Positions 1 through 39,707 of a stretch of 39,707 nt of DNA are shown here, in pieces. How positions within the stretch are numbered: the stretch's first letter is position 1; every line of letters starts with the position of its first letter. Position numbers and translations under genes: made by a program. The stretch is taken from the UHGV virus genome UHGV-0130034. One strand, written 5' to 3'. The DNA is from a virus. The notes under the pieces were generated by a model. The model was not told where the DNA came from. It made no database searches and saw only the letters and a list, made by a program, of their open reading frames with translations.

Positions 1-6
1 AACCTA

Positions 7-69
7 ATGATGAATGACGGTAAGCAACAATCTACCTTTTTGTTTCACGATTACGCGCAACACCCCTGA
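7..69 (+). pseudogene. sbcB: Displaced native 5' end of sbcB (exonuclease I): codons 1-16 (MMNDGKQQSTFLFHDY), then reads into phage DNA and stops after 20 codons
   Basis: atgatgaatgacggtaagcaacaatctacctttttgtttcacgattac matches the recalled SbcB N-terminus; divergence from the attR-side continuation begins after position 55. Confidence 0.8.
32..55. repeat. attL core (direct repeat of attR core)
   Basis: ctacctttttgtttcacgattacg versus ctaccttcctctttcacgattacg at 39565-39588. Confidence 0.8.
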
Positions 70-109
70 GAGCCGCCATGAACAAGGGTTTCATAATTTG
101 TGATTTTGG

Positions 110-131
110 TTTGGTACGCAATTTGGTACAC
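110..131. repeat. Putative integrase arm-type binding sites (two direct copies of TTTGGTACRC)
   Basis: tttggtacgc (110-119) and tttggtacac (122-131); the same decamer recurs three times upstream of int at 39370-39413. Confidence 0.55.
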
Positions 132-457
132 AACACAATTTTCACTTCAGTGGGTAGTCATCAAACTCACCATAACGAGCATCGTTGATGATGTATGTGA
201 TCACCACAAATATCACATCTGGACTAGTTCCGTCTTCATGCGCAGGTATCTGTTCATGCCTACCTGTCTGCAAACCAGTAATAAGCTATTACAGTGTGAT
301 AGTGATGCATCAACTACGATAAATGCAGAGAAATGATGCAGTGGTGGGCGGACTGGATTGATAAAAAGGTGGAGTGAACGACATTATGAACAACAGGAGA
401 ACACACAAAACCTCGCAAAATTACAAAGATTTGTGTGTTAGTACTTATCATTGCGAT

Positions 458-2404
458 TTAAAGAATAATTCTTTCAACCTTCCAAGTTGCAGATCTACTT
501 CCTGAAATTCCAACTCCATTTGAATCTTTGAGAAGAATTCTAAATGATGTTTCTGTTACCAAATCATACGTTGCATTTATTGCTGCGCCATCTCCTATCG
601 ATATTGAGATAAAATCAGGCACAACTCCAAGTCCGTGAGTTATTATTTGTCCATTTGAATAAACCCCAGTTCCTATTTTAGTCGTTGCATACCCGGCATT
701 GTTTGCAAGGACAACATTAACCGAATTTGCTCCTAATTTAGCAATCTTCCTATCAGATGAAATCTCTGTAGATTGTATTGCATTATTTGAAATAACTGCA
801 TCTTTTATAGCCCTGAAATCTCCAGGTGTTCCTGATACAGCATTAACAAGTATTGCATACTGCATACTTCTATCACTTCTTTTATTGCCGAAAGCATTAC
901 CGCAAATTGTTGTCCCGGTAAATCCAGATGCTCCCGTGTTATCAAGAAGAATTCCGCACCTATATGTATTTGATGTATCAGAAGGCAAACCTATACCTCT
1001 TATGGAATTATTGGATACTATATTATTATCTGGCTTGACATTTGCATTATTGCAGTAAATGCGAATTCCAACATCACAAAATGCATCTAATACATTATCA
1101 GATATAACATTACCCGCTCCCCACACATCAATACCCATAAACGAATCAGCACCATCTCCAAAAAATTTATTTTGAGTAACTATTGTTCCGCTACCCCTAA
1201 TCAATATAGCAGGCCTTGGAATGCTTGAAGTCTTTTTGCTATCATTGTAGCCATGATTATCGTTTATATGAGATTCCCCCCCCGCACTATCTATGCAGCA
1301 ATTACACGAATCTATTATATTTTTATTTATCCTTACATAGACAGAATCGTGTTTTATACCTGTAATAAAATTTGATATGGAATTTGATACAAAACTAGTT
1401 GCCTTACATGGCAATGAAACGCCATGTATAGCGTCCTTAGACGCTCCTATGGCAACAAAATGTATCCCTGTAACAATTGCTGGGTTCTCATTAGATGATG
1501 TGTCACCTATGGTAATAGCAAAAGAATTCTCATCTTCAGGACCATCAATTGTTAATATCGTTTGTGGCGTATATCCTTGAGATATTTGCGATCCATTTCC
1601 TGAACCAAACCCTCTCATACTTACAAAAGATGGGATTCTTAGTTTTTCTGTTACTCTACAGTTGCCCCCCCAAAAAAATTCCTCTTTAACATGGGCAGCG
1701 GCCAGCATGATTGGAATTGTATCATCTTTAACTCCATCAAGCGTCGCTCCATAATTTCTAAGGTCATTGGTTTCATACCCATTTAAATAACCAATACATC
1801 TCCATCCTGTTGAGTTATATCTGGCAAATTTATCATCTGGGGGAACAGTAAAAGGAGGAACTGTCATTTCTCCTCCAGTTATTTCATTTTCATATACCCA
1901 AAACAACCCATCATAATCTTTGATTGCGCATCGGTTGTCACGAATGATATTTTGCTTGTCATAGTTCCCACAATATGAAAAACCAGTTGCTAATTTCTGT
2001 AAATTTGTTCCTGATGCTGAGTTTATTAATGATGCGCCATTTTCGCTAGTTAATACATTATTTAGAGGGTCAGGATCATACTTCAGCACATTAGGAAAAT
2101 AGAACTGCTGCGCACCGTACGCATCATAAACAGCCATAGAATGGCCTTGCACAGTTACGAACTTGGCAATCTGTCCGTTATATACCGGATATCCGGCAGC
2201 GTTAATGATTATTGGTTGCGAAACAGGAACGTGAGAACCGTCTTCGTTCTCTACATAAACCTGAATCTGGTTTTCAGGATTTACAGGGTCAGTGTCAATT
2301 TTACCGATATAAATTTTGCCATTGGCAACGGCTTTAAAAGAACGAGCCATAGTGAAGAGTTGCGAAGGCATCGATACGATCACATTGGCTGTAATGTCTG
2401 TCAT
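458..2404 (-). CDS. gp9: Tailspike protein: P22 gp9-like N-terminal head-binding domain fused to a divergent receptor-binding domain
   Basis: N-terminus MTDITANV...[34 protein letters not shown]...[12 protein letters not shown] matches recalled P22 tailspike residues ~1-110; remainder diverges. Confidence 0.9.
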
Positions 2405-31632: not shown

Positions 31633-31711
31633 AGGTGTTCGCGTATTTTTAAATGCGGCAAAGACTGAAGTATTAAATCAGCGTTATTTCCTTGGGCCAT
31701 GTCCATTCTGA
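31541..31711 (+). CDS. Arf-like small protein (56 aa) directly upstream of erf
   Basis: Strong SD GAAGGAG 6 nt upstream; position corresponds to P22 arf. Confidence 0.5.
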   Translation: MSLATTVKESKLQRRMYTQQALMYRQKGDREGVRVFLNAAKTEVLNQRYFLGPCPF

Positions 31712-31721
31712 GAACAAACAT

Positions 31722-32327
31722 ATGAGCAAAGAATTTTACGCAAGACTGGCAGCTATTCAGGAGAATCTGAACGCGCCAAAGAATCAGTACAACTCATTCG
31801 GCAAATATAAATACAGAAGCTGCGAAGACATTCTTGAAGGCGTTAAGCCGTTACTGAATGGTCTGTTTTTATCAATCAGCGATGAAGTTGTGTTGATTGG
31901 TGATCGGTATTACGTGAAAGCCACGGCAACTATTACCGATGGCGAAAACAGTCATACGGCAACCGCTCTTGCACGAGAGGAAGAAAGCAAGAAAGGAATG
32001 GATTCTGCACAAGTTACGGGAGCTACAAGCTCTTATGCACGCAAATATTGCCTCAATGGTTTGTTCGGCATTGATGATGCGAAAGATGCAGATACAGACG
32101 AGCATAAACATCAGCAGAACGCAGCAGCAAAGCAGTCAAAACCATCACCTACACCTGAACAGGTTCTAAAAGCATTCACTGACGCAGCATTGCAGAAAAA
32201 CACCGTGGAAGAGCTTAAACAGGCGTTCGCCAAAGCGTGGAAGATGCTCGAAGGCACACCGGAGCAGCACAAAGCGCAGGACGTTTACAACATCAGACGA
32301 GACGAATTAGAAGGAGCGGCTGCTTAA
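31722..32327 (+). CDS. erf: Erf single-strand annealing recombinase (start at MSKEFYARL)
   Basis: MSKEFYARLA.IQE.LNAPKNQYNSFGKYKYRSCEDILEGVKPLL.GLFLSISDE.VLIGDRYYVKATATITDGENSH matches recalled P22 Erf. Confidence 0.9.
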   Translation: MSKEFYARLAAIQENLNAPKNQYNSFGKYKYRSCEDILEGVKPLLNGLFLSISDEVVLIGDRYYVKATATITDGENSHTATALAREEESKKGMDSAQVTGATSSYARKYCLNGLFGIDDAKDADTDEHKHQQNAAAKQSKPSPTPEQVLKAFTDAALQKNTVEELKQAFAKAWKMLEGTPEQHKAQDVYNIRRDELEGAAA

Positions 32328-38010: not shown

Positions 38011-38202
38011 ATGACCGATACCAGCCTGATTCCTGAGAAAGAAGTGATGAACAAGCTCGGTGTTTCATCACGTCAGACAATCTGGAACTATACCAAACGG
38101 CACGGATTTCCGAAGCCAGTCAGAACCCACCCCAAATCATACCTTCGTGAAGCTGTTGAAGGGTGGATTCTTAACGGTGGCGTTAATCAGAAATGCTCCT
38201 GA
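38011..38202 (+). CDS. xis: Excisionase / AlpA-family DNA-binding protein
   Basis: 63 aa; HTH-like LGVSSRQTIWNYTKRHGFPKPV typical of AlpA/Xis; GGAGA RBS; adjacent to int. Confidence 0.7.
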   Translation: MTDTSLIPEKEVMNKLGVSSRQTIWNYTKRHGFPKPVRTHPKSYLREAVEGWILNGGVNQKCS

Positions 38203-39361
38203 TGTGCCAGAACAATTTATCAGCGTGAAGCTCATACGCTTTGCGCTGAGCCTCTATCCAGTCGTGTTTATTGTACACGGACATTATCCCGCCAAGTTCA
38301 TGACCGAGCATTCTCTCAGTAACATGAGGCTCGACATTCATCTCGGACAGACGTGTAACAAGCGTTCTTCTGAAATCATGTGTTCGCCAGTAACCTATAT
38401 CCATCCCTCCCCTTATTCTATTTACGAATCGGTTGGCTGCAGCGATGCTGATCGGTTTGTTTATGTCTTCTCCAGGGAAAAGAACATCATTGTACGTTGT
38501 CATGGCCTTATCGAGGAAAGGCTTAATTTGTTCGAAGATTGGACGGCGGATAACATTACCCATCTTGCTATGCTCTTTCGGTACGGTCCATACGTTTTCC
38601 AGCAGGTCAAATTCTGTCTTTTTTGCCAGCCTAAGCTCTGAGAGCCTCGCCCCCCACAGCATAAGCATCTGATGAAGTAGCTTATTTGACGTAGACGCAC
38701 GGCTTCTTTCAATAGCAAGCCAAATCTTAGCCAGTTCGTGATACGACAGTACCCGATCCCCTACCTCAGCGCGGGAGCCGAAGTCCCTTGGTTGGATGCT
38801 CATAATTGCGCAACTATCTATCAACTGACGCCGCATGCACCAACTAATTGCTGATCTTAGTTGACTTAGCACCTGCCTTGCTCGGCGTGGATTATCTTTT
38901 TCTTCTTCGGTAAGCAGGTCAACCCATTGCTTAACCGTGATAGAAGATGCCGGACGATTAGGGAAGGCGTCATGCATGCGCTTCATAACCGTTGATCGGT
39001 AAAGTGCCTGGGTCTTTTCTCTGAGAGTTGTAGAGACGTAGTTGTCGAACCAGTAGTCGAGACACTGGGCAACCGTCATGGAGTTCTCCACCTTCTCTTC
39101 AAAATAAGTGCGTGGATCCGTTCCTGAGAAATAGAGCTTTCGTAAGTCAGCAGTGATCTGTCTGGCATCCTTCAAAGACAGGGATGGGTATCGACCAAGC
39201 CCAAGTCGATTAGGCTTGCCATGCCAGCGATAGCGGTACTGGAACTGGATGACCCCCTTCGGTGAAATTCGTACGCTGAGGCCATCGGCATCAGCCACTT
39301 CTTGTGGGCCCGAATATGGTTTACCATAAATAGTACGCAGTTTTGTGTCGCTTATAGCCAT
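38183..39361 (-). CDS. int: Tyrosine integrase (P4-like family; start at MAISDTKLRT)
   Basis: N-terminal arm-binding-like domain, HDFRRT (H-x-x-R) motif and C-terminal Tyr (MSVYNKHDW); adjacent to attR. Confidence 0.9.
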   Translation of the reverse strand: MAISDTKLRTIYGKPYSGPQEVADADGLSVRISPKGVIQFQYRYRWHGKPNRLGLGRYPSLSLKDARQITADLRKLYFSGTDPRTYFEEKVENSMTVAQCLDYWFDNYVSTTLREKTQALYRSTVMKRMHDAFPNRPASSITVKQWVDLLTEEEKDNPRRARQVLSQLRSAISWCMRRQLIDSCAIMSIQPRDFGSRAEVGDRVLSYHELAKIWLAIERSRASTSNKLLHQMLMLWGARLSELRLAKKTEFDLLENVWTVPKEHSKMGNVIRRPIFEQIKPFLDKAMTTYNDVLFPGEDINKPISIAAANRFVNRIRGGMDIGYWRTHDFRRTLVTRLSEMNVEPHVTERMLGHELGGIMSVYNKHDWIEAQRKAYELHADKLFWHIRSISD

Positions 39362-39369
39362 AAATAATA

Positions 39370-39413
39370 TTTGGTACGCTAAGAAATAATGGTTTGGTAC
39401 ACATCTGGTACAC
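39370..39413. repeat. Putative integrase arm-type sites between the int start and attR core (three copies)
   Basis: tttggtacgc (39370-39379), tttggtacac (39393-39402), tctggtacac (39405-39413); same decamer as at 110-131. Confidence 0.55.
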
Positions 39414-39542
39414 AATATCACATGGACAACAGCGCACAGTAAACAACTATATTTGACGTTCGTAGACATACTCAGGTGAAAAAATGGTTGTTTTTCGAGT
39501 TATAACAGACAGTTAATTAACTACAGTGGACAATGCTAGACA

Positions 39543-39707
39543 ATGACAGACACAGATAAACAACCTACCTTCCTCTTTCACGATTACGAAACCTTTGGAA
39601 CGCACCCCGCGTTAGATCGCCCTGCACAGTTCGCAGCCATTCGCACTGATAACGAATTCAATGTCATCGGCGAACCCGAAGTCTTTTACTGCAAGCCCGC
39701 GGATGAC
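39543..39707 (+). CDS. sbcB: Exonuclease I (sbcB), 5' partial: hybrid gene whose first ~11 codons are phage-derived (MTDTDKQPTFLFHDYETFGTHPALDRP...); continues past the window end
   Basis: In-frame ATG at 39543 inside phage DNA reads through the att core into host sbcB (FHDYETFGTHPALDRPAQFAAIRTD...). Confidence 0.8.
   Translation, partial: MTDTDKQPTFLFHDYETFGTHPALDRPAQFAAIRTDNEFNVIGEPEVFYCKPADD
39565..39588. repeat. attR core
   Basis: ctaccttcctctttcacgattacg, 21/24 identical to 32-55. Confidence 0.8.

What the first reader, a model, noticed from the sequence alone, without database searches (positions are those of the whole stretch)
39543..39707. Integration inside the sbcB coding sequence with in-frame phage-encoded replacement of the SbcB N-terminus
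The native sbcB start at the left end (7-55, MMNDGKQQSTFLFHDY) is cut at the att core and terminates after 20 codons. At attR, phage DNA supplies an ATG (39543) and 11 codons (MTDTDKQPTFL) that run in frame through the core into the host sbcB body. The similarity between the phage and host segments extends beyond the 13-bp perfect core with indels, so the phage carries a diverged pseudo-5' end of sbcB. The lysogen therefore expresses a chimeric exonuclease I from a phage promoter and RBS, possibly under altered regulation. I recall that Shigella phage Sf101 was reported to use an sbcB attachment site, but I cannot verify that here.
Basis: partly seen in the sequence, partly recalled or inferred. 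Interest (0 to 1): 0.65.

Follow-up and report, generated by a model that had tools for sequence, protein, structure and literature searches.

The report
Prophage in sbcB that rebuilds the gene
A P22-like prophage sits inside the start of the E. coli exonuclease I gene (sbcB) and carries its own start codon and first 11 codons, so the gene stays whole; the insertion site is long known and common, so the finding is real but ordinary.

Summary
A 13-bp direct repeat (TTTCACGATTACG) lies at window 43-55 and 39576-39588. An unoccupied E. coli sbcB locus places this core inside sbcB codons 13-17. Free phage genomes (HK140, mEp234, HK544, Sf101) carry the same ATG plus MTDTDKQPTFL directly before the core. 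Integration therefore leaves a 20-codon native stub at attL and a full-length 474-aa chimeric exonuclease I at attR, which RefSeq annotates as sbcB. Only residues 1-9 change, and the catalytic FHDYE motif is kept.

This is the published "type 2851" attachment site (Stx2c phage 2851, Sf101). The junction is present in 582 of 5426 complete E. coli genomes.

I add one thing. Related integrases (99% down to 40% identity) in 26 species genomes from Enterobacterales to Photobacterium all sit about 180 nt from an intact sbcB. All 32 distinct element-side 5' segments, pooled from genome and viral loci, keep an in-frame start (ATG, TTG or GTG) and a conserved peptide encoded by varying synonymous codons. 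Gene restoration is therefore a selected design of this integrase family.

The claim that a phage promoter drives the gene is logically required if the gene is expressed, but no promoter was identified. Novelty: already known. Interest is low.

The parts
7..69 (+). Stub of native sbcB left at attL: native start codon and 16 native codons, running into 4 phage codons and a stop (MMNDGKQQSTFLFHDYAQHP*).
   Evidence: ORF list and translation. Positions 1-55 are 100% identical to unoccupied sbcB loci, and the identity ends at 55.
43..55 (+). attL copy of the 13-bp core TTTCACGATTACG.
   Evidence: Exact-match search. It is identical to the published attP core of phages 2851 and Sf101, written there as its reverse complement CGTAATCGTGAAA (PMC4159516).
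56..140 (+). P' arm of the attachment site, with two arm-type integrase-binding repeats TGGTACRC at 112-119 and 124-131.
   Evidence: The motif occurs 6 times in the window against 1.36 expected, and 5 of the 6 lie in the two att arms. The same sequence follows the core in free phage HK140.
38011..38202 (+). 63-aa excisionase / AlpA-like DNA-binding protein, convergent with int and overlapping its 3' end.
   Evidence: PHROG phrog_66 'excisionase and transcriptional regulator', E = 1.9e-8. Annotated as an AlpA family protein in related phages.
38183..39361 (-). Tyrosine integrase of 392 aa, type 2851.
   Evidence: Pfam Arm-DNA-bind_3 and Phage_integrase, both above their cut-offs. The int-attP stretch is 98.6-99.1% identical in nucleotides to phages 2851, Sf101, HK140, HK544, mEp234 and Stx2c phage 1717.
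39362..39542 (+). 181-bp P arm, the spacer between int and sbcB'. It holds three arm-type repeats (39372-39379, 39395-39402, 39406-39413) and must contain whatever promoter and translation-initiation signals serve the chimeric sbcB.
   Evidence: Motif search. Identical sequence in free phage HK140. The spacing is conserved at 171-181 nt in most of the 26 related genomic loci. No promoter was called.
39543..39575 (+). Phage-borne start codon and 11 codons (MTDTDKQPTFL), a diverged copy of the sbcB 5' end.
   Evidence: Translation. The same sequence is present in free phage genomes. Alignment to native sbcB.
39576..39588 (+). attR copy of the 13-bp core. It encodes F-H-D-Y and the first base of E, part of the FHDYE segment that I recall as the ExoI catalytic motif.
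   Evidence: The RNase_T exonuclease domain starts at residue 12.
39589..39707 (+). Host sbcB body, continuing beyond the window end.
   Evidence: 90-99% identical to sbcB in 5423 of 5426 E. coli genomes. Matches solved exonuclease I structures 1FXX and 4JRP at E = 1.8e-29.

Best explanation
A 39.5-kb P22-like temperate phage is integrated by its tyrosine integrase at the published 'type 2851' attachment site, a 13-bp core inside codons 13-17 of sbcB (exonuclease I).

The phage attP carries, immediately before the core, a diverged copy of the sbcB start codon and first codons. Recombination therefore does two things. It leaves the native promoter, start and 16 codons as a dead 20-codon stub at attL. 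It also fuses the phage ATG plus 11 codons in frame to the rest of sbcB at attR.

The product is a 474-aa exonuclease I that differs from the native 475-aa protein only in residues 1-9 and keeps T-F-L-F-H-D-Y-E. The gene is rebuilt rather than inactivated, and excision restores the native allele.

All upstream control DNA of the rebuilt gene is now the 181-bp phage P arm, which is shared with the divergent int gene. Any transcription of sbcB in the lysogen must therefore start in phage DNA.

Shown here: junctions, reading frame, phage origin of the 5' end, and family-wide conservation. Inferred: that the chimeric protein is active, and that it is expressed from a promoter in the P arm.
For: Junction and origin:
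- Core positions and reading frames.
- The empty site places the core inside the ORF, with dacD upstream.
- Free phage genomes carry ATG + MTDTDKQPTFL + core followed by unrelated sequence and a stop.
- The integrase has an arm-binding domain and a catalytic domain, and arm-type repeats cluster in both arms.

Integrity of the rebuilt gene:
- PGAP annotates a 1425-nt sbcB (WP_000132553.1) next to int in strain E2863, whose attR is 100% identical to the window.
- That protein scores 814.7 bits against the exonuclease I equivalog model, cut-off 260.

Selection for restoration:
- In 26 of 35 genomic loci with related integrases (99% to 40% identity), int lies divergent from sbcB. The hosts span Escherichia, Buttiauxella, Erwinia, Pantoea, Serratia, Tatumella, Rahnella, Orbaceae, Photobacterium and Parendozoicomonas. 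tblastn aligns sbcB essentially end to end in one piece in all but three loci: two poor assemblies (L034, L035) and Parendozoicomonas, which aligns over residues 6-433.
- The start codon sits 171-181 nt from the int ATG in most of these loci.
- All 32 distinct element-side 5' segments have an in-frame start and no stop. The peptide Q-P-T-F-(L/Y)-F-H is conserved while its codons vary synonymously: four Thr codons, CAA/CAG, TTC/TTT, CTC/CTT/CTA.
- A diverged attP (integrase 72% identical) carries its own version, GTG-KNESNQPTFLFHDYET, followed by unrelated sequence.

Literature: phage 2851 and Sf101 integrate at this 13-bp core in the 5' end of sbcB (PMC4159516).
Against: - No promoter was found in the 181-bp spacer, and there is no recognisable Shine-Dalgarno sequence. 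Expression is therefore unproven. Both negatives apply equally to native sbcB.
- Half of the related elements use TTG or GTG starts, which could mean reduced rather than preserved expression.
- The bases just left of the core (CCTACCTTC) are conserved at DNA level across the family. Part of the apparent coding conservation could therefore reflect an integrase core-binding site.
- No activity or transcript data were available.
Confidence: 0.85

Rival explanations
1. Cosmetic restoration with functional knock-down. The ORF is rebuilt, but cutting sbcB off from its own promoter leaves it silent or strongly reduced in the lysogen. Conservation of the phage-borne codons would then mainly reflect integrase and accessory-protein binding sites in attP.
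For: - No sigma-70 promoter and no Shine-Dalgarno sequence in the spacer.
- 16 of 32 element-side starts are TTG or GTG.
- The spacer is densely packed with recombination signals: arm-type repeats, an IHF-like WATCAANNNNTTR match in relatives, and repeated GGACA/GAACA motifs that run into the coding part.
- DNA-level conservation of CCTACCTTC next to the core.
Against: - Synonymous codon variation under a conserved peptide, and an in-frame start at a fixed position in 32 of 32 segments, are what protein-level selection predicts. Binding-site constraint alone does not predict them.
- Native sbcB shows the same lack of promoter and Shine-Dalgarno calls.
- sbcB aligns end to end without frameshift next to int in all but three of 26 loci: two poor assemblies (L034, L035) and Parendozoicomonas, which aligns over residues 6-433.
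Confidence: 0.12
2. One-off capture. The phage once picked up a piece of a host sbcB by imprecise excision, and the in-frame fusion is a historical accident with no selection on it.
For: The phage segment looks like a diverged sbcB 5' end. In some relatives it shares the upstream motif ACGGAWWTAA with the native E. coli leader.
Against: The feature is kept at the same distance from int in integrase lineages as far apart as 40-75% identity and in distant host families. Each lineage has its own sequence version and none is broken. An unselected relic would have decayed. Two copies at non-sbcB sites (L016, L025) do show the changes or decay expected once the constraint is lost.
Confidence: 0.02
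3. Chance repeat or mis-assembly. The two 13-mers would be coincidental, and the window would not be a real prophage junction.
For: About a dozen repeated 13-mer pairs are expected by chance somewhere in 39.7 kb (my own arithmetic).
Against: - Identity with empty sites breaks exactly at the core on both sides.
- 582 genomes carry the attR junction and 529 the attL junction.
- Free phages carry the matching attP.
- The site has been verified by PCR and sequencing in the literature (PMC4159516).
Confidence: 0.01

Closest known systems
Type 2851 integration module: Stx2c phage 2851, Stx2 phage 1717, Shigella phage Sf101, and coliphages HK140, HK544 and mEp234
   Same: Same integrase and attP, 98.6-99.1% nucleotide identity over int plus the P arm. 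Same 13-bp core and same target, the 5' end of sbcB (PMC4159516). GenBank records already annotate 'attP (type 2851)' and 'duplication due to insertion'.
   Different: The rest of the phage differs. The window is a P22-like podovirus closest to APC_JM3.2 and IME10, with no stx genes. The accessible papers describe the site as 'integration into' or 'disruption of' sbcB and do not state that the N-terminus is replaced in frame. The original 2851 paper could not be read.
[quoted passage not shown]
   Same: Site-specific integration at the 5' end of a protein gene, with the prophage changing the N-terminal amino acids of the host protein (PMC6379469).
   Different: Different target gene. Relatedness of the integrases, and family-wide conservation of the supplied start codon, were not examined for Rac here.
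e14 and phage 21 in icd (isocitrate dehydrogenase)
   Same: The att core lies inside a coding sequence. The element carries a diverged duplicate of the displaced gene end, so the gene stays intact, and a pseudo-fragment is left at the other junction (PMC6379469 and PMC13626634).
   Different: There the 3' end is replaced, so the host promoter and start stay in control. Here the 5' end is replaced, so the promoter region, start codon and first codons all become phage DNA.
Integration into tRNA genes by arm-binding (P4-like) tyrosine integrases
   Same: Same integrase architecture and the same logic: target a conserved sequence and rebuild the gene from an attP-borne copy. Relatives of this integrase at 50-55% identity do sit next to tRNA-Arg(CCU).
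   Different: As I recall from Williams (2002, not checked here), tRNA-integrating elements restore the 3' part of the gene. In this family the target's 5' end faces int.
Disruptive integration or 'active lysogeny', for example Stx1 phages in yehV/mlrA and Listeria phage in comK (from memory)
   Same: The prophage lies inside a host gene, and excision restores the native allele.
   Different: In those cases the gene is inactivated while the prophage is in place. Here a complete ORF is rebuilt.

Membership tests
Type 2851 sbcB-integrating phage module | Integrase nearly identical to that of phage 2851 | tested here: met
   98.7% nucleotide identity to phage 2851 (FM180578) over 1589 nt covering int, the excisionase-like gene and the P arm.
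Type 2851 sbcB-integrating phage module | 13-bp core CGTAATCGTGAAA, as published | tested here: met
   Its reverse complement TTTCACGATTACG lies at 43-55 and 39576-39588. The published sequence is in PMC4159516.
Type 2851 sbcB-integrating phage module | Insertion at the 5' end of sbcB, flanked by the core as a direct repeat | tested here: met
   Comparison with the empty site. dacD lies upstream of native sbcB. In the occupied locus of strain E2863, tsuB lies downstream of sbcB.
Tyrosine recombinase with arm-type binding (lambda/P4-like integrases) | N-terminal arm-DNA-binding domain plus C-terminal catalytic domain | tested here: met
   Pfam PF13356 at 64.8 bits and PF00589 at 61.3 bits, both above their cut-offs.
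Tyrosine recombinase with arm-type binding (lambda/P4-like integrases) | Repeated arm-type sites in both attP arms | tested here: met
   TGGTACRC occurs three times in the P arm and twice in the P' arm, all on one strand. There are 6 in the window against 1.36 expected, and no shuffle reached 6. Binding itself was not tested.
Gene-restoring (non-disruptive) integration into a coding sequence | Core inside the ORF, and an element-borne replacement segment in frame | tested here: met
Gene-restoring (non-disruptive) integration into a coding sequence | The rebuilt protein keeps the family's full-length signature | tested here: met
   The 474-aa chimera matches the exonuclease I equivalog NF008746 over residues 4-473 at 814.7 bits. 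The FHDYE motif is retained.
Gene-restoring (non-disruptive) integration into a coding sequence | The rebuilt gene is transcribed, translated and active in the lysogen | not testable with these tools
   Only indirect support is available: family-wide purifying selection on the supplied codons. The promoter scan was uninformative.
Disruptive integration / active lysogeny | The target gene is inactivated while the prophage is present | tested here: not met
   The ORF is complete and annotated as sbcB. Loss of expression cannot be excluded.

The most novel reading that the evidence does not exclude
This integrase family may be a dedicated replacer of gene 5' ends, one that takes over control of its target gene rather than merely sparing it.

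Evidence for the geometry: in all sbcB-linked relatives the element supplies the promoter region, the start codon (often the weak TTG or GTG) and the first codons. A sister clade does the same to a DJ-1/PfpI gene, and further relatives sit at the 5' side of tRNA-Arg(CCU), all at the same distance of about 180-200 nt from int.

Possible benefit to the phage: exonuclease I destroys 3' single-stranded DNA ends, which phage annealing proteins use, and this prophage encodes an Erf-like annealing protein. Exonuclease I also restrains at least one cDNA-based defence system (DRT10, bioRxiv 10.64898/2026.04.29.721553). The phage-supplied control region could therefore tune exonuclease I in lysogens or on induction. 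This is a speculation that my evidence does not exclude.
Probability: 0.15. Interest if true: 0.6.

Novelty: already known. Interest (0 to 1): 0.22.

Why it matters
For genome annotation and STEC typing, an "occupied" or "disrupted" sbcB should not be read as an sbcB knockout. About one in ten complete E. coli genomes carries a rebuilt, slightly altered exonuclease I whose control region is phage DNA.

If that control region changes exonuclease I levels, several things could be affected in a large set of clinical and laboratory lysogens: recombination, frameshift mutation rates, recombineering efficiency and exonuclease-dependent phage defence.

The family-wide conservation shown here is a clean natural example of selection on a phage to keep its target gene intact. 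It rests on 32 independent sequence versions, all in frame. It also suggests why the site was chosen: the core encodes FHDYE, which I recall (not checked here) to be the catalytic motif of this exonuclease. The motif is kept in nearly all hosts examined (variants occur in Photobacterium and Parendozoicomonas), which gives the integrase a broad host range.

Tried and rejected
1. Promoter and terminator scans of both junctions found nothing useful. The control scan on a native sbcB locus also found no promoter in front of the gene, so I drew no conclusion. Candidates seen by eye were too weak or not conserved to report as findings: TGGACA-19-TATATT in the P arm, and TTGATA-17-AATAAC upstream of native sbcB.
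2. Shine-Dalgarno pairing energies and local mRNA folding show no difference between the native and chimeric contexts. Both are at the level of shuffled sequence.
3. The original phage 2851 paper (Strauch et al. 2008) could not be fetched by DOI or PMC id. Whether it already describes the N-terminal replacement is unknown.
4. Searches for papers stating that sbcB is restored in frame found none.
5. I first assumed the window came from strain E2863, which has a 100% identical attR. That strain's prophage differs, for example by an IS1203 insertion and tRNA genes, so only the integration module is shared.
6. O157 Sakai was checked as a possible well-studied lysogen. It has native sbcB next to dacD.
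7. Two further viral-contig scans, with Serratia and Pantoea integrases, aimed to find more diverged attP sites. They returned essentially the same contigs. Only one clearly diverged free attP (L066) was obtained.
8. Loci L034 and L035 show broken sbcB next to a truncated int. Their implausibly low identities (38-79% within Shigella/E. coli) point to poor assemblies, so I did not use them as evidence of decay.
9. Structure prediction of the chimeric protein was not possible. The window holds only 55 residues, and foreign sequences are not accepted by the tool.

Full report
**1. Checking the observation**

The left end of the window holds an ORF at 7..69 that reads MMNDGKQQSTFLFHDYAQHP and then stops. 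At the right end an ATG at 39543 opens MTDTDKQPTFLFHDYETFGTHPALDRPAQFAAIRTDNEFNVIGEPEVFYCKPADD, which is still open at the last base. An in-frame TAG two codons upstream means no earlier start is possible.

The 13-mer TTTCACGATTACG occurs exactly twice in the window, at 43-55 and 39576-39588. The neighbouring bases differ on both sides.

**2. Which side is host and which is phage**

An unoccupied K-12-like locus has dacD, a 208-bp spacer, and then sbcB starting ATGATGAATGACGGTAAGCAACAATCTACCTTTTTGTTTCACGATTACGAAACC. The core therefore lies at codons 13-17 (F H D Y E) of the native gene.

Thousands of E. coli genomes without the prophage match window 1-55 at 100% and stop there. They match the right end only from 39559 or 39576 onward.

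Free phage genomes carry the complementary arrangement. HK140 has int, a 181-bp spacer, ATG ACA GAC ACA GAT AAA CAA CCT ACC TTC CTC, the core, and then CGCAAT... with a stop four codons later. The same is seen in Sf101, HK544, mEp234 and several IMG/VR phage contigs.

So the MTDTDKQPTFL segment is phage DNA and the MMNDGKQQSTFL segment is host DNA. The distance between the two cores, and hence the phage genome length, is 39,533 bp.

**3. The phage segment is a diverged sbcB 5' end**

Aligned by codon, the two versions are:
- Native: M M N D G K Q Q S T F L
- Phage: M T D T D K Q - P T F L

There are synonymous differences at K (AAG/AAA), F (TTT/TTC) and L (TTG/CTC), and the phage version is one codon shorter. 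Only 18 of 2000 shuffles reach the nucleotide alignment score of the 45 nt left of the core. The right side is weaker, with 78 of 2000 reaching it.

**4. The product**

In E. coli E2863, whose attR is 100% identical to the window, PGAP annotates a 1425-nt sbcB (WP_000132553.1) divergent from the integrase. That 474-aa protein scores 814.7 bits against the NCBIfam exonuclease I equivalog over residues 4-473, with a cut-off of 260.

The 55 residues in the window match the solved exonuclease I structures 1FXX and 4JRP (E = 1.8e-29). The Pfam exonuclease domain begins at residue 12.

From memory, and not checked here, D15 and E17 of native ExoI are catalytic metal ligands. They are encoded in and just after the core and are unchanged. 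Only residues 1-9 differ.

**5. The machinery**

- Integrase: window 38183..39361 (-) has an arm-DNA-binding domain and a tyrosine-recombinase catalytic domain.
- Excisionase-like protein: a 63-aa ORF lies convergent with int at 38011..38202.
- Arm-type repeats: the octamer TGGTACRC occurs six times in the window against 1.36 expected. Five of these lie in the att arms, all on one strand: two at 112-131 and three at 39372-39413.
- Phage type: the rest of the element is a P22-like podovirus closest to APC_JM3.2 and IME10. It encodes an Ant anti-repressor and an Erf-like annealing protein and has no tRNA genes.

**6. What is already known**

The int-attP stretch is 98.6-99.1% identical to Stx2c phage 2851, Stx2 phage 1717, Sf101, HK140, HK544 and mEp234. 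GenBank records already label the site 'attP (type 2851)'.

The Sf101 paper gives the same 13-bp core. [quoted passage not shown]

sbcB occupancy is a routine typing marker in O157:H7 (PMC3519850, PMC8309913). The junction is present in 582 (attR) and 529 (attL) of 5426 complete E. coli genomes.

The accessible papers speak of integration into, or 'disruption' of, sbcB and do not mention the in-frame replacement. The original 2851 paper could not be read.

The general principle is established for e14 in icd (3' end) and for Rac in ttcA (5' end, with N-terminal variation): an element inside a gene carries a copy of the displaced end (PMC6379469, PMC13626634).

**7. New comparative evidence**

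A scan of one genome per species with the integrase gave 35 loci. In 26 of them the integrase lies divergent from an sbcB homologue. These integrases range from 99% down to 40% identity. Their hosts span Escherichia, Buttiauxella, Erwinia, Pantoea, Chimaeribacter, Serratia, Rosenbergiella, Tatumella, Rahnella, Klebsiella, Orbaceae, Gilliamella, Photobacterium and Parendozoicomonas. tblastn aligns sbcB essentially end to end in one piece in all but three loci: two evidently poor assemblies, and Parendozoicomonas, which aligns over residues 6-433.

The start codon sits 171-181 nt from the int ATG in most of these loci, and the DYETFG motif about 206-217 nt away.

Pooling genome and viral loci gives 32 distinct element-side 5' segments:
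- Every one has an in-frame start: 16 ATG, 10 TTG, 6 GTG.
- None contains a stop.
- The peptide Q-P-T-F-(L/Y)-F-H is conserved while codons vary synonymously. Thr is encoded by ACC, ACT, ACG or ACA, Gln by CAA or CAG, Phe by TTC or TTT, and Leu by CTC, CTT or CTA.

One diverged free attP (L066, integrase 72% identical, mid-contig) reads GTG-KNESNQPTFLFHDYET followed by unrelated sequence and a stop. This shows that the feature is phage-borne there too.

This pattern is what purifying selection on the encoded protein predicts. It argues that the phages are selected to keep sbcB intact.

A caveat applies. The bases next to the core (CCTACCTTC) are also conserved at DNA level, so an integrase core-binding site probably overlaps the coding function.

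**8. Expression, the unproven part**

After integration the native promoter faces only the 20-codon stub and then reads antisense into the tailspike gene. No terminator was called there. Everything upstream of the rebuilt gene is the 181-bp P arm, shared with the divergent int.

The consensus scan finds no sigma-70 promoter there. It also finds none in front of native sbcB, so the negative result carries no weight.

Pairing with the 16S rRNA 3' end is -3.3 kcal/mol for the native context and -3.0 kcal/mol for the chimeric one. Both are at the level of shuffled sequence, and both start regions are unstructured. The phage-supplied initiation region thus resembles the native one.

Some relatives even share the native leader motif ACGGAWWTAA.

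That a phage promoter drives the gene is a necessary inference if the gene is expressed at all. Altered regulation remains possible but is untested.

**9. Verdict**

The structural interpretation is supported: integration inside the ORF, and in-frame phage-encoded replacement of the N-terminus. The regulatory interpretation is inferred.

The site and module are published and common, and the mechanism is a known kind, so novelty is 'already known' and interest is low. The added value is twofold. First, restoration is a conserved and selected design of a whole integrase family. Second, 'occupied sbcB' should not be equated with loss of exonuclease I.

Noticed in passing
L092, L096, L118 (IMG/VR loci; integrase about 61-62% identical to the window's): A sister clade applies the same design to a different gene. 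At the same distance from int, a GTG plus (M)QSPHLAEDY runs in frame into a host DJ-1/PfpI-family gene (Pfam PF01965, 135.8 bits). L092 is the matching attP and diverges right after ...GAAGATTAC. That site contains the same 11-mer GATTACGAAAC as the sbcB site (there the last 7 bases of the core plus the next 4 host bases), so a switch of target gene appears to have followed a similar core sequence.
   Followed up: partly
L020 (Xenorhabdus), L022 (Proteus penneri), L024 (gammaproteobacterial MAG), positions about 2732-2807: Relatives at 50-55% integrase identity lie divergent from a complete tRNA-Arg(CCU) gene. The tRNA's 5' end faces int, 194 nt away. As I recall, tRNA-integrating elements normally restore the 3' part of the gene, so a 5'-side geometry would be unusual. 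The other junction was not available to map the core.
   Followed up: partly
L016 (Yersinia pekkanenii) and L025 (second copy in Rosenbergiella nectarea), about 170-230 nt upstream of int: An sbcB-like pseudo-5' end sits next to int but is joined to unrelated DNA. L016 reads (M)KDKPIHKTFYIGDY and then other sequence. L025 has a decayed version (MKKD*) with core AGCGATTACG. These look like integrations at secondary sites, where the coding constraint is lost.
   Followed up: no
window 39415-39575, and the same region of L004-L033; L028 about 35-110 nt from the int ATG: The P arm is studded with GGACA / GAACA / AGACA-type short repeats that continue into the phage-borne codons (ATGACAGACACAGATAAACAAC). 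In a Klebsiella sp. element the motif is amplified into a tandem (CAGTGAA)n array. A WATCAANNNNTTR (IHF-like) match lies about 35-45 nt upstream of the start codon in several relatives. These are probably accessory-protein binding sites. They were seen by eye and not tested statistically.
   Followed up: no
L120 (E. coli E2863, NZ_AP018802.1 2502120-2544200) compared with the window: The attR end is 100% identical to the window, but the prophage behind it is different. It has an IS1203 insertion in the gp4-like gene, tRNA-Thr and tRNA-Asn genes, and lambda Red genes (Gam, Bet, Exo) where the window has an Erf-like gene. The same int-attP module is thus shuffled among P22-like, lambda-like and Stx phages.
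   Followed up: partly
E. coli genome searches: About 50 more genomes carry the attR junction (582) than the attL junction (529). This suggests prophage remnants that have lost their left end and can no longer excise, leaving the chimeric sbcB fixed. Such lineages would be the natural place to look for decay or maintenance of the rebuilt gene.
   Followed up: no
L035 (E. coli ECMA0423) and L034 (Shigella flexneri SFBU1023): int is truncated to 107 residues. L035 encodes a hybrid N-terminus, MTDTDKQSTFL, which is the phage type but has the host's Ser in place of Pro. Both assemblies give implausibly low sbcB identities and frameshifts, so assembly quality is suspect.
   Followed up: no
window 31692-32327 (+): The prophage encodes an Erf-like single-strand annealing protein (phrog_155, E = 5e-58). 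Such proteins work on 3' single-stranded DNA, the substrate of exonuclease I, whose gene this prophage rebuilds under phage-supplied control. The link is speculative.
   Followed up: no
window 1-460: After integration the native sbcB promoter (outside the window) faces the 20-codon stub and then reads antisense into the 3' end of the tailspike gene (458..2404, minus strand). No terminator was predicted in between.
   Followed up: partly
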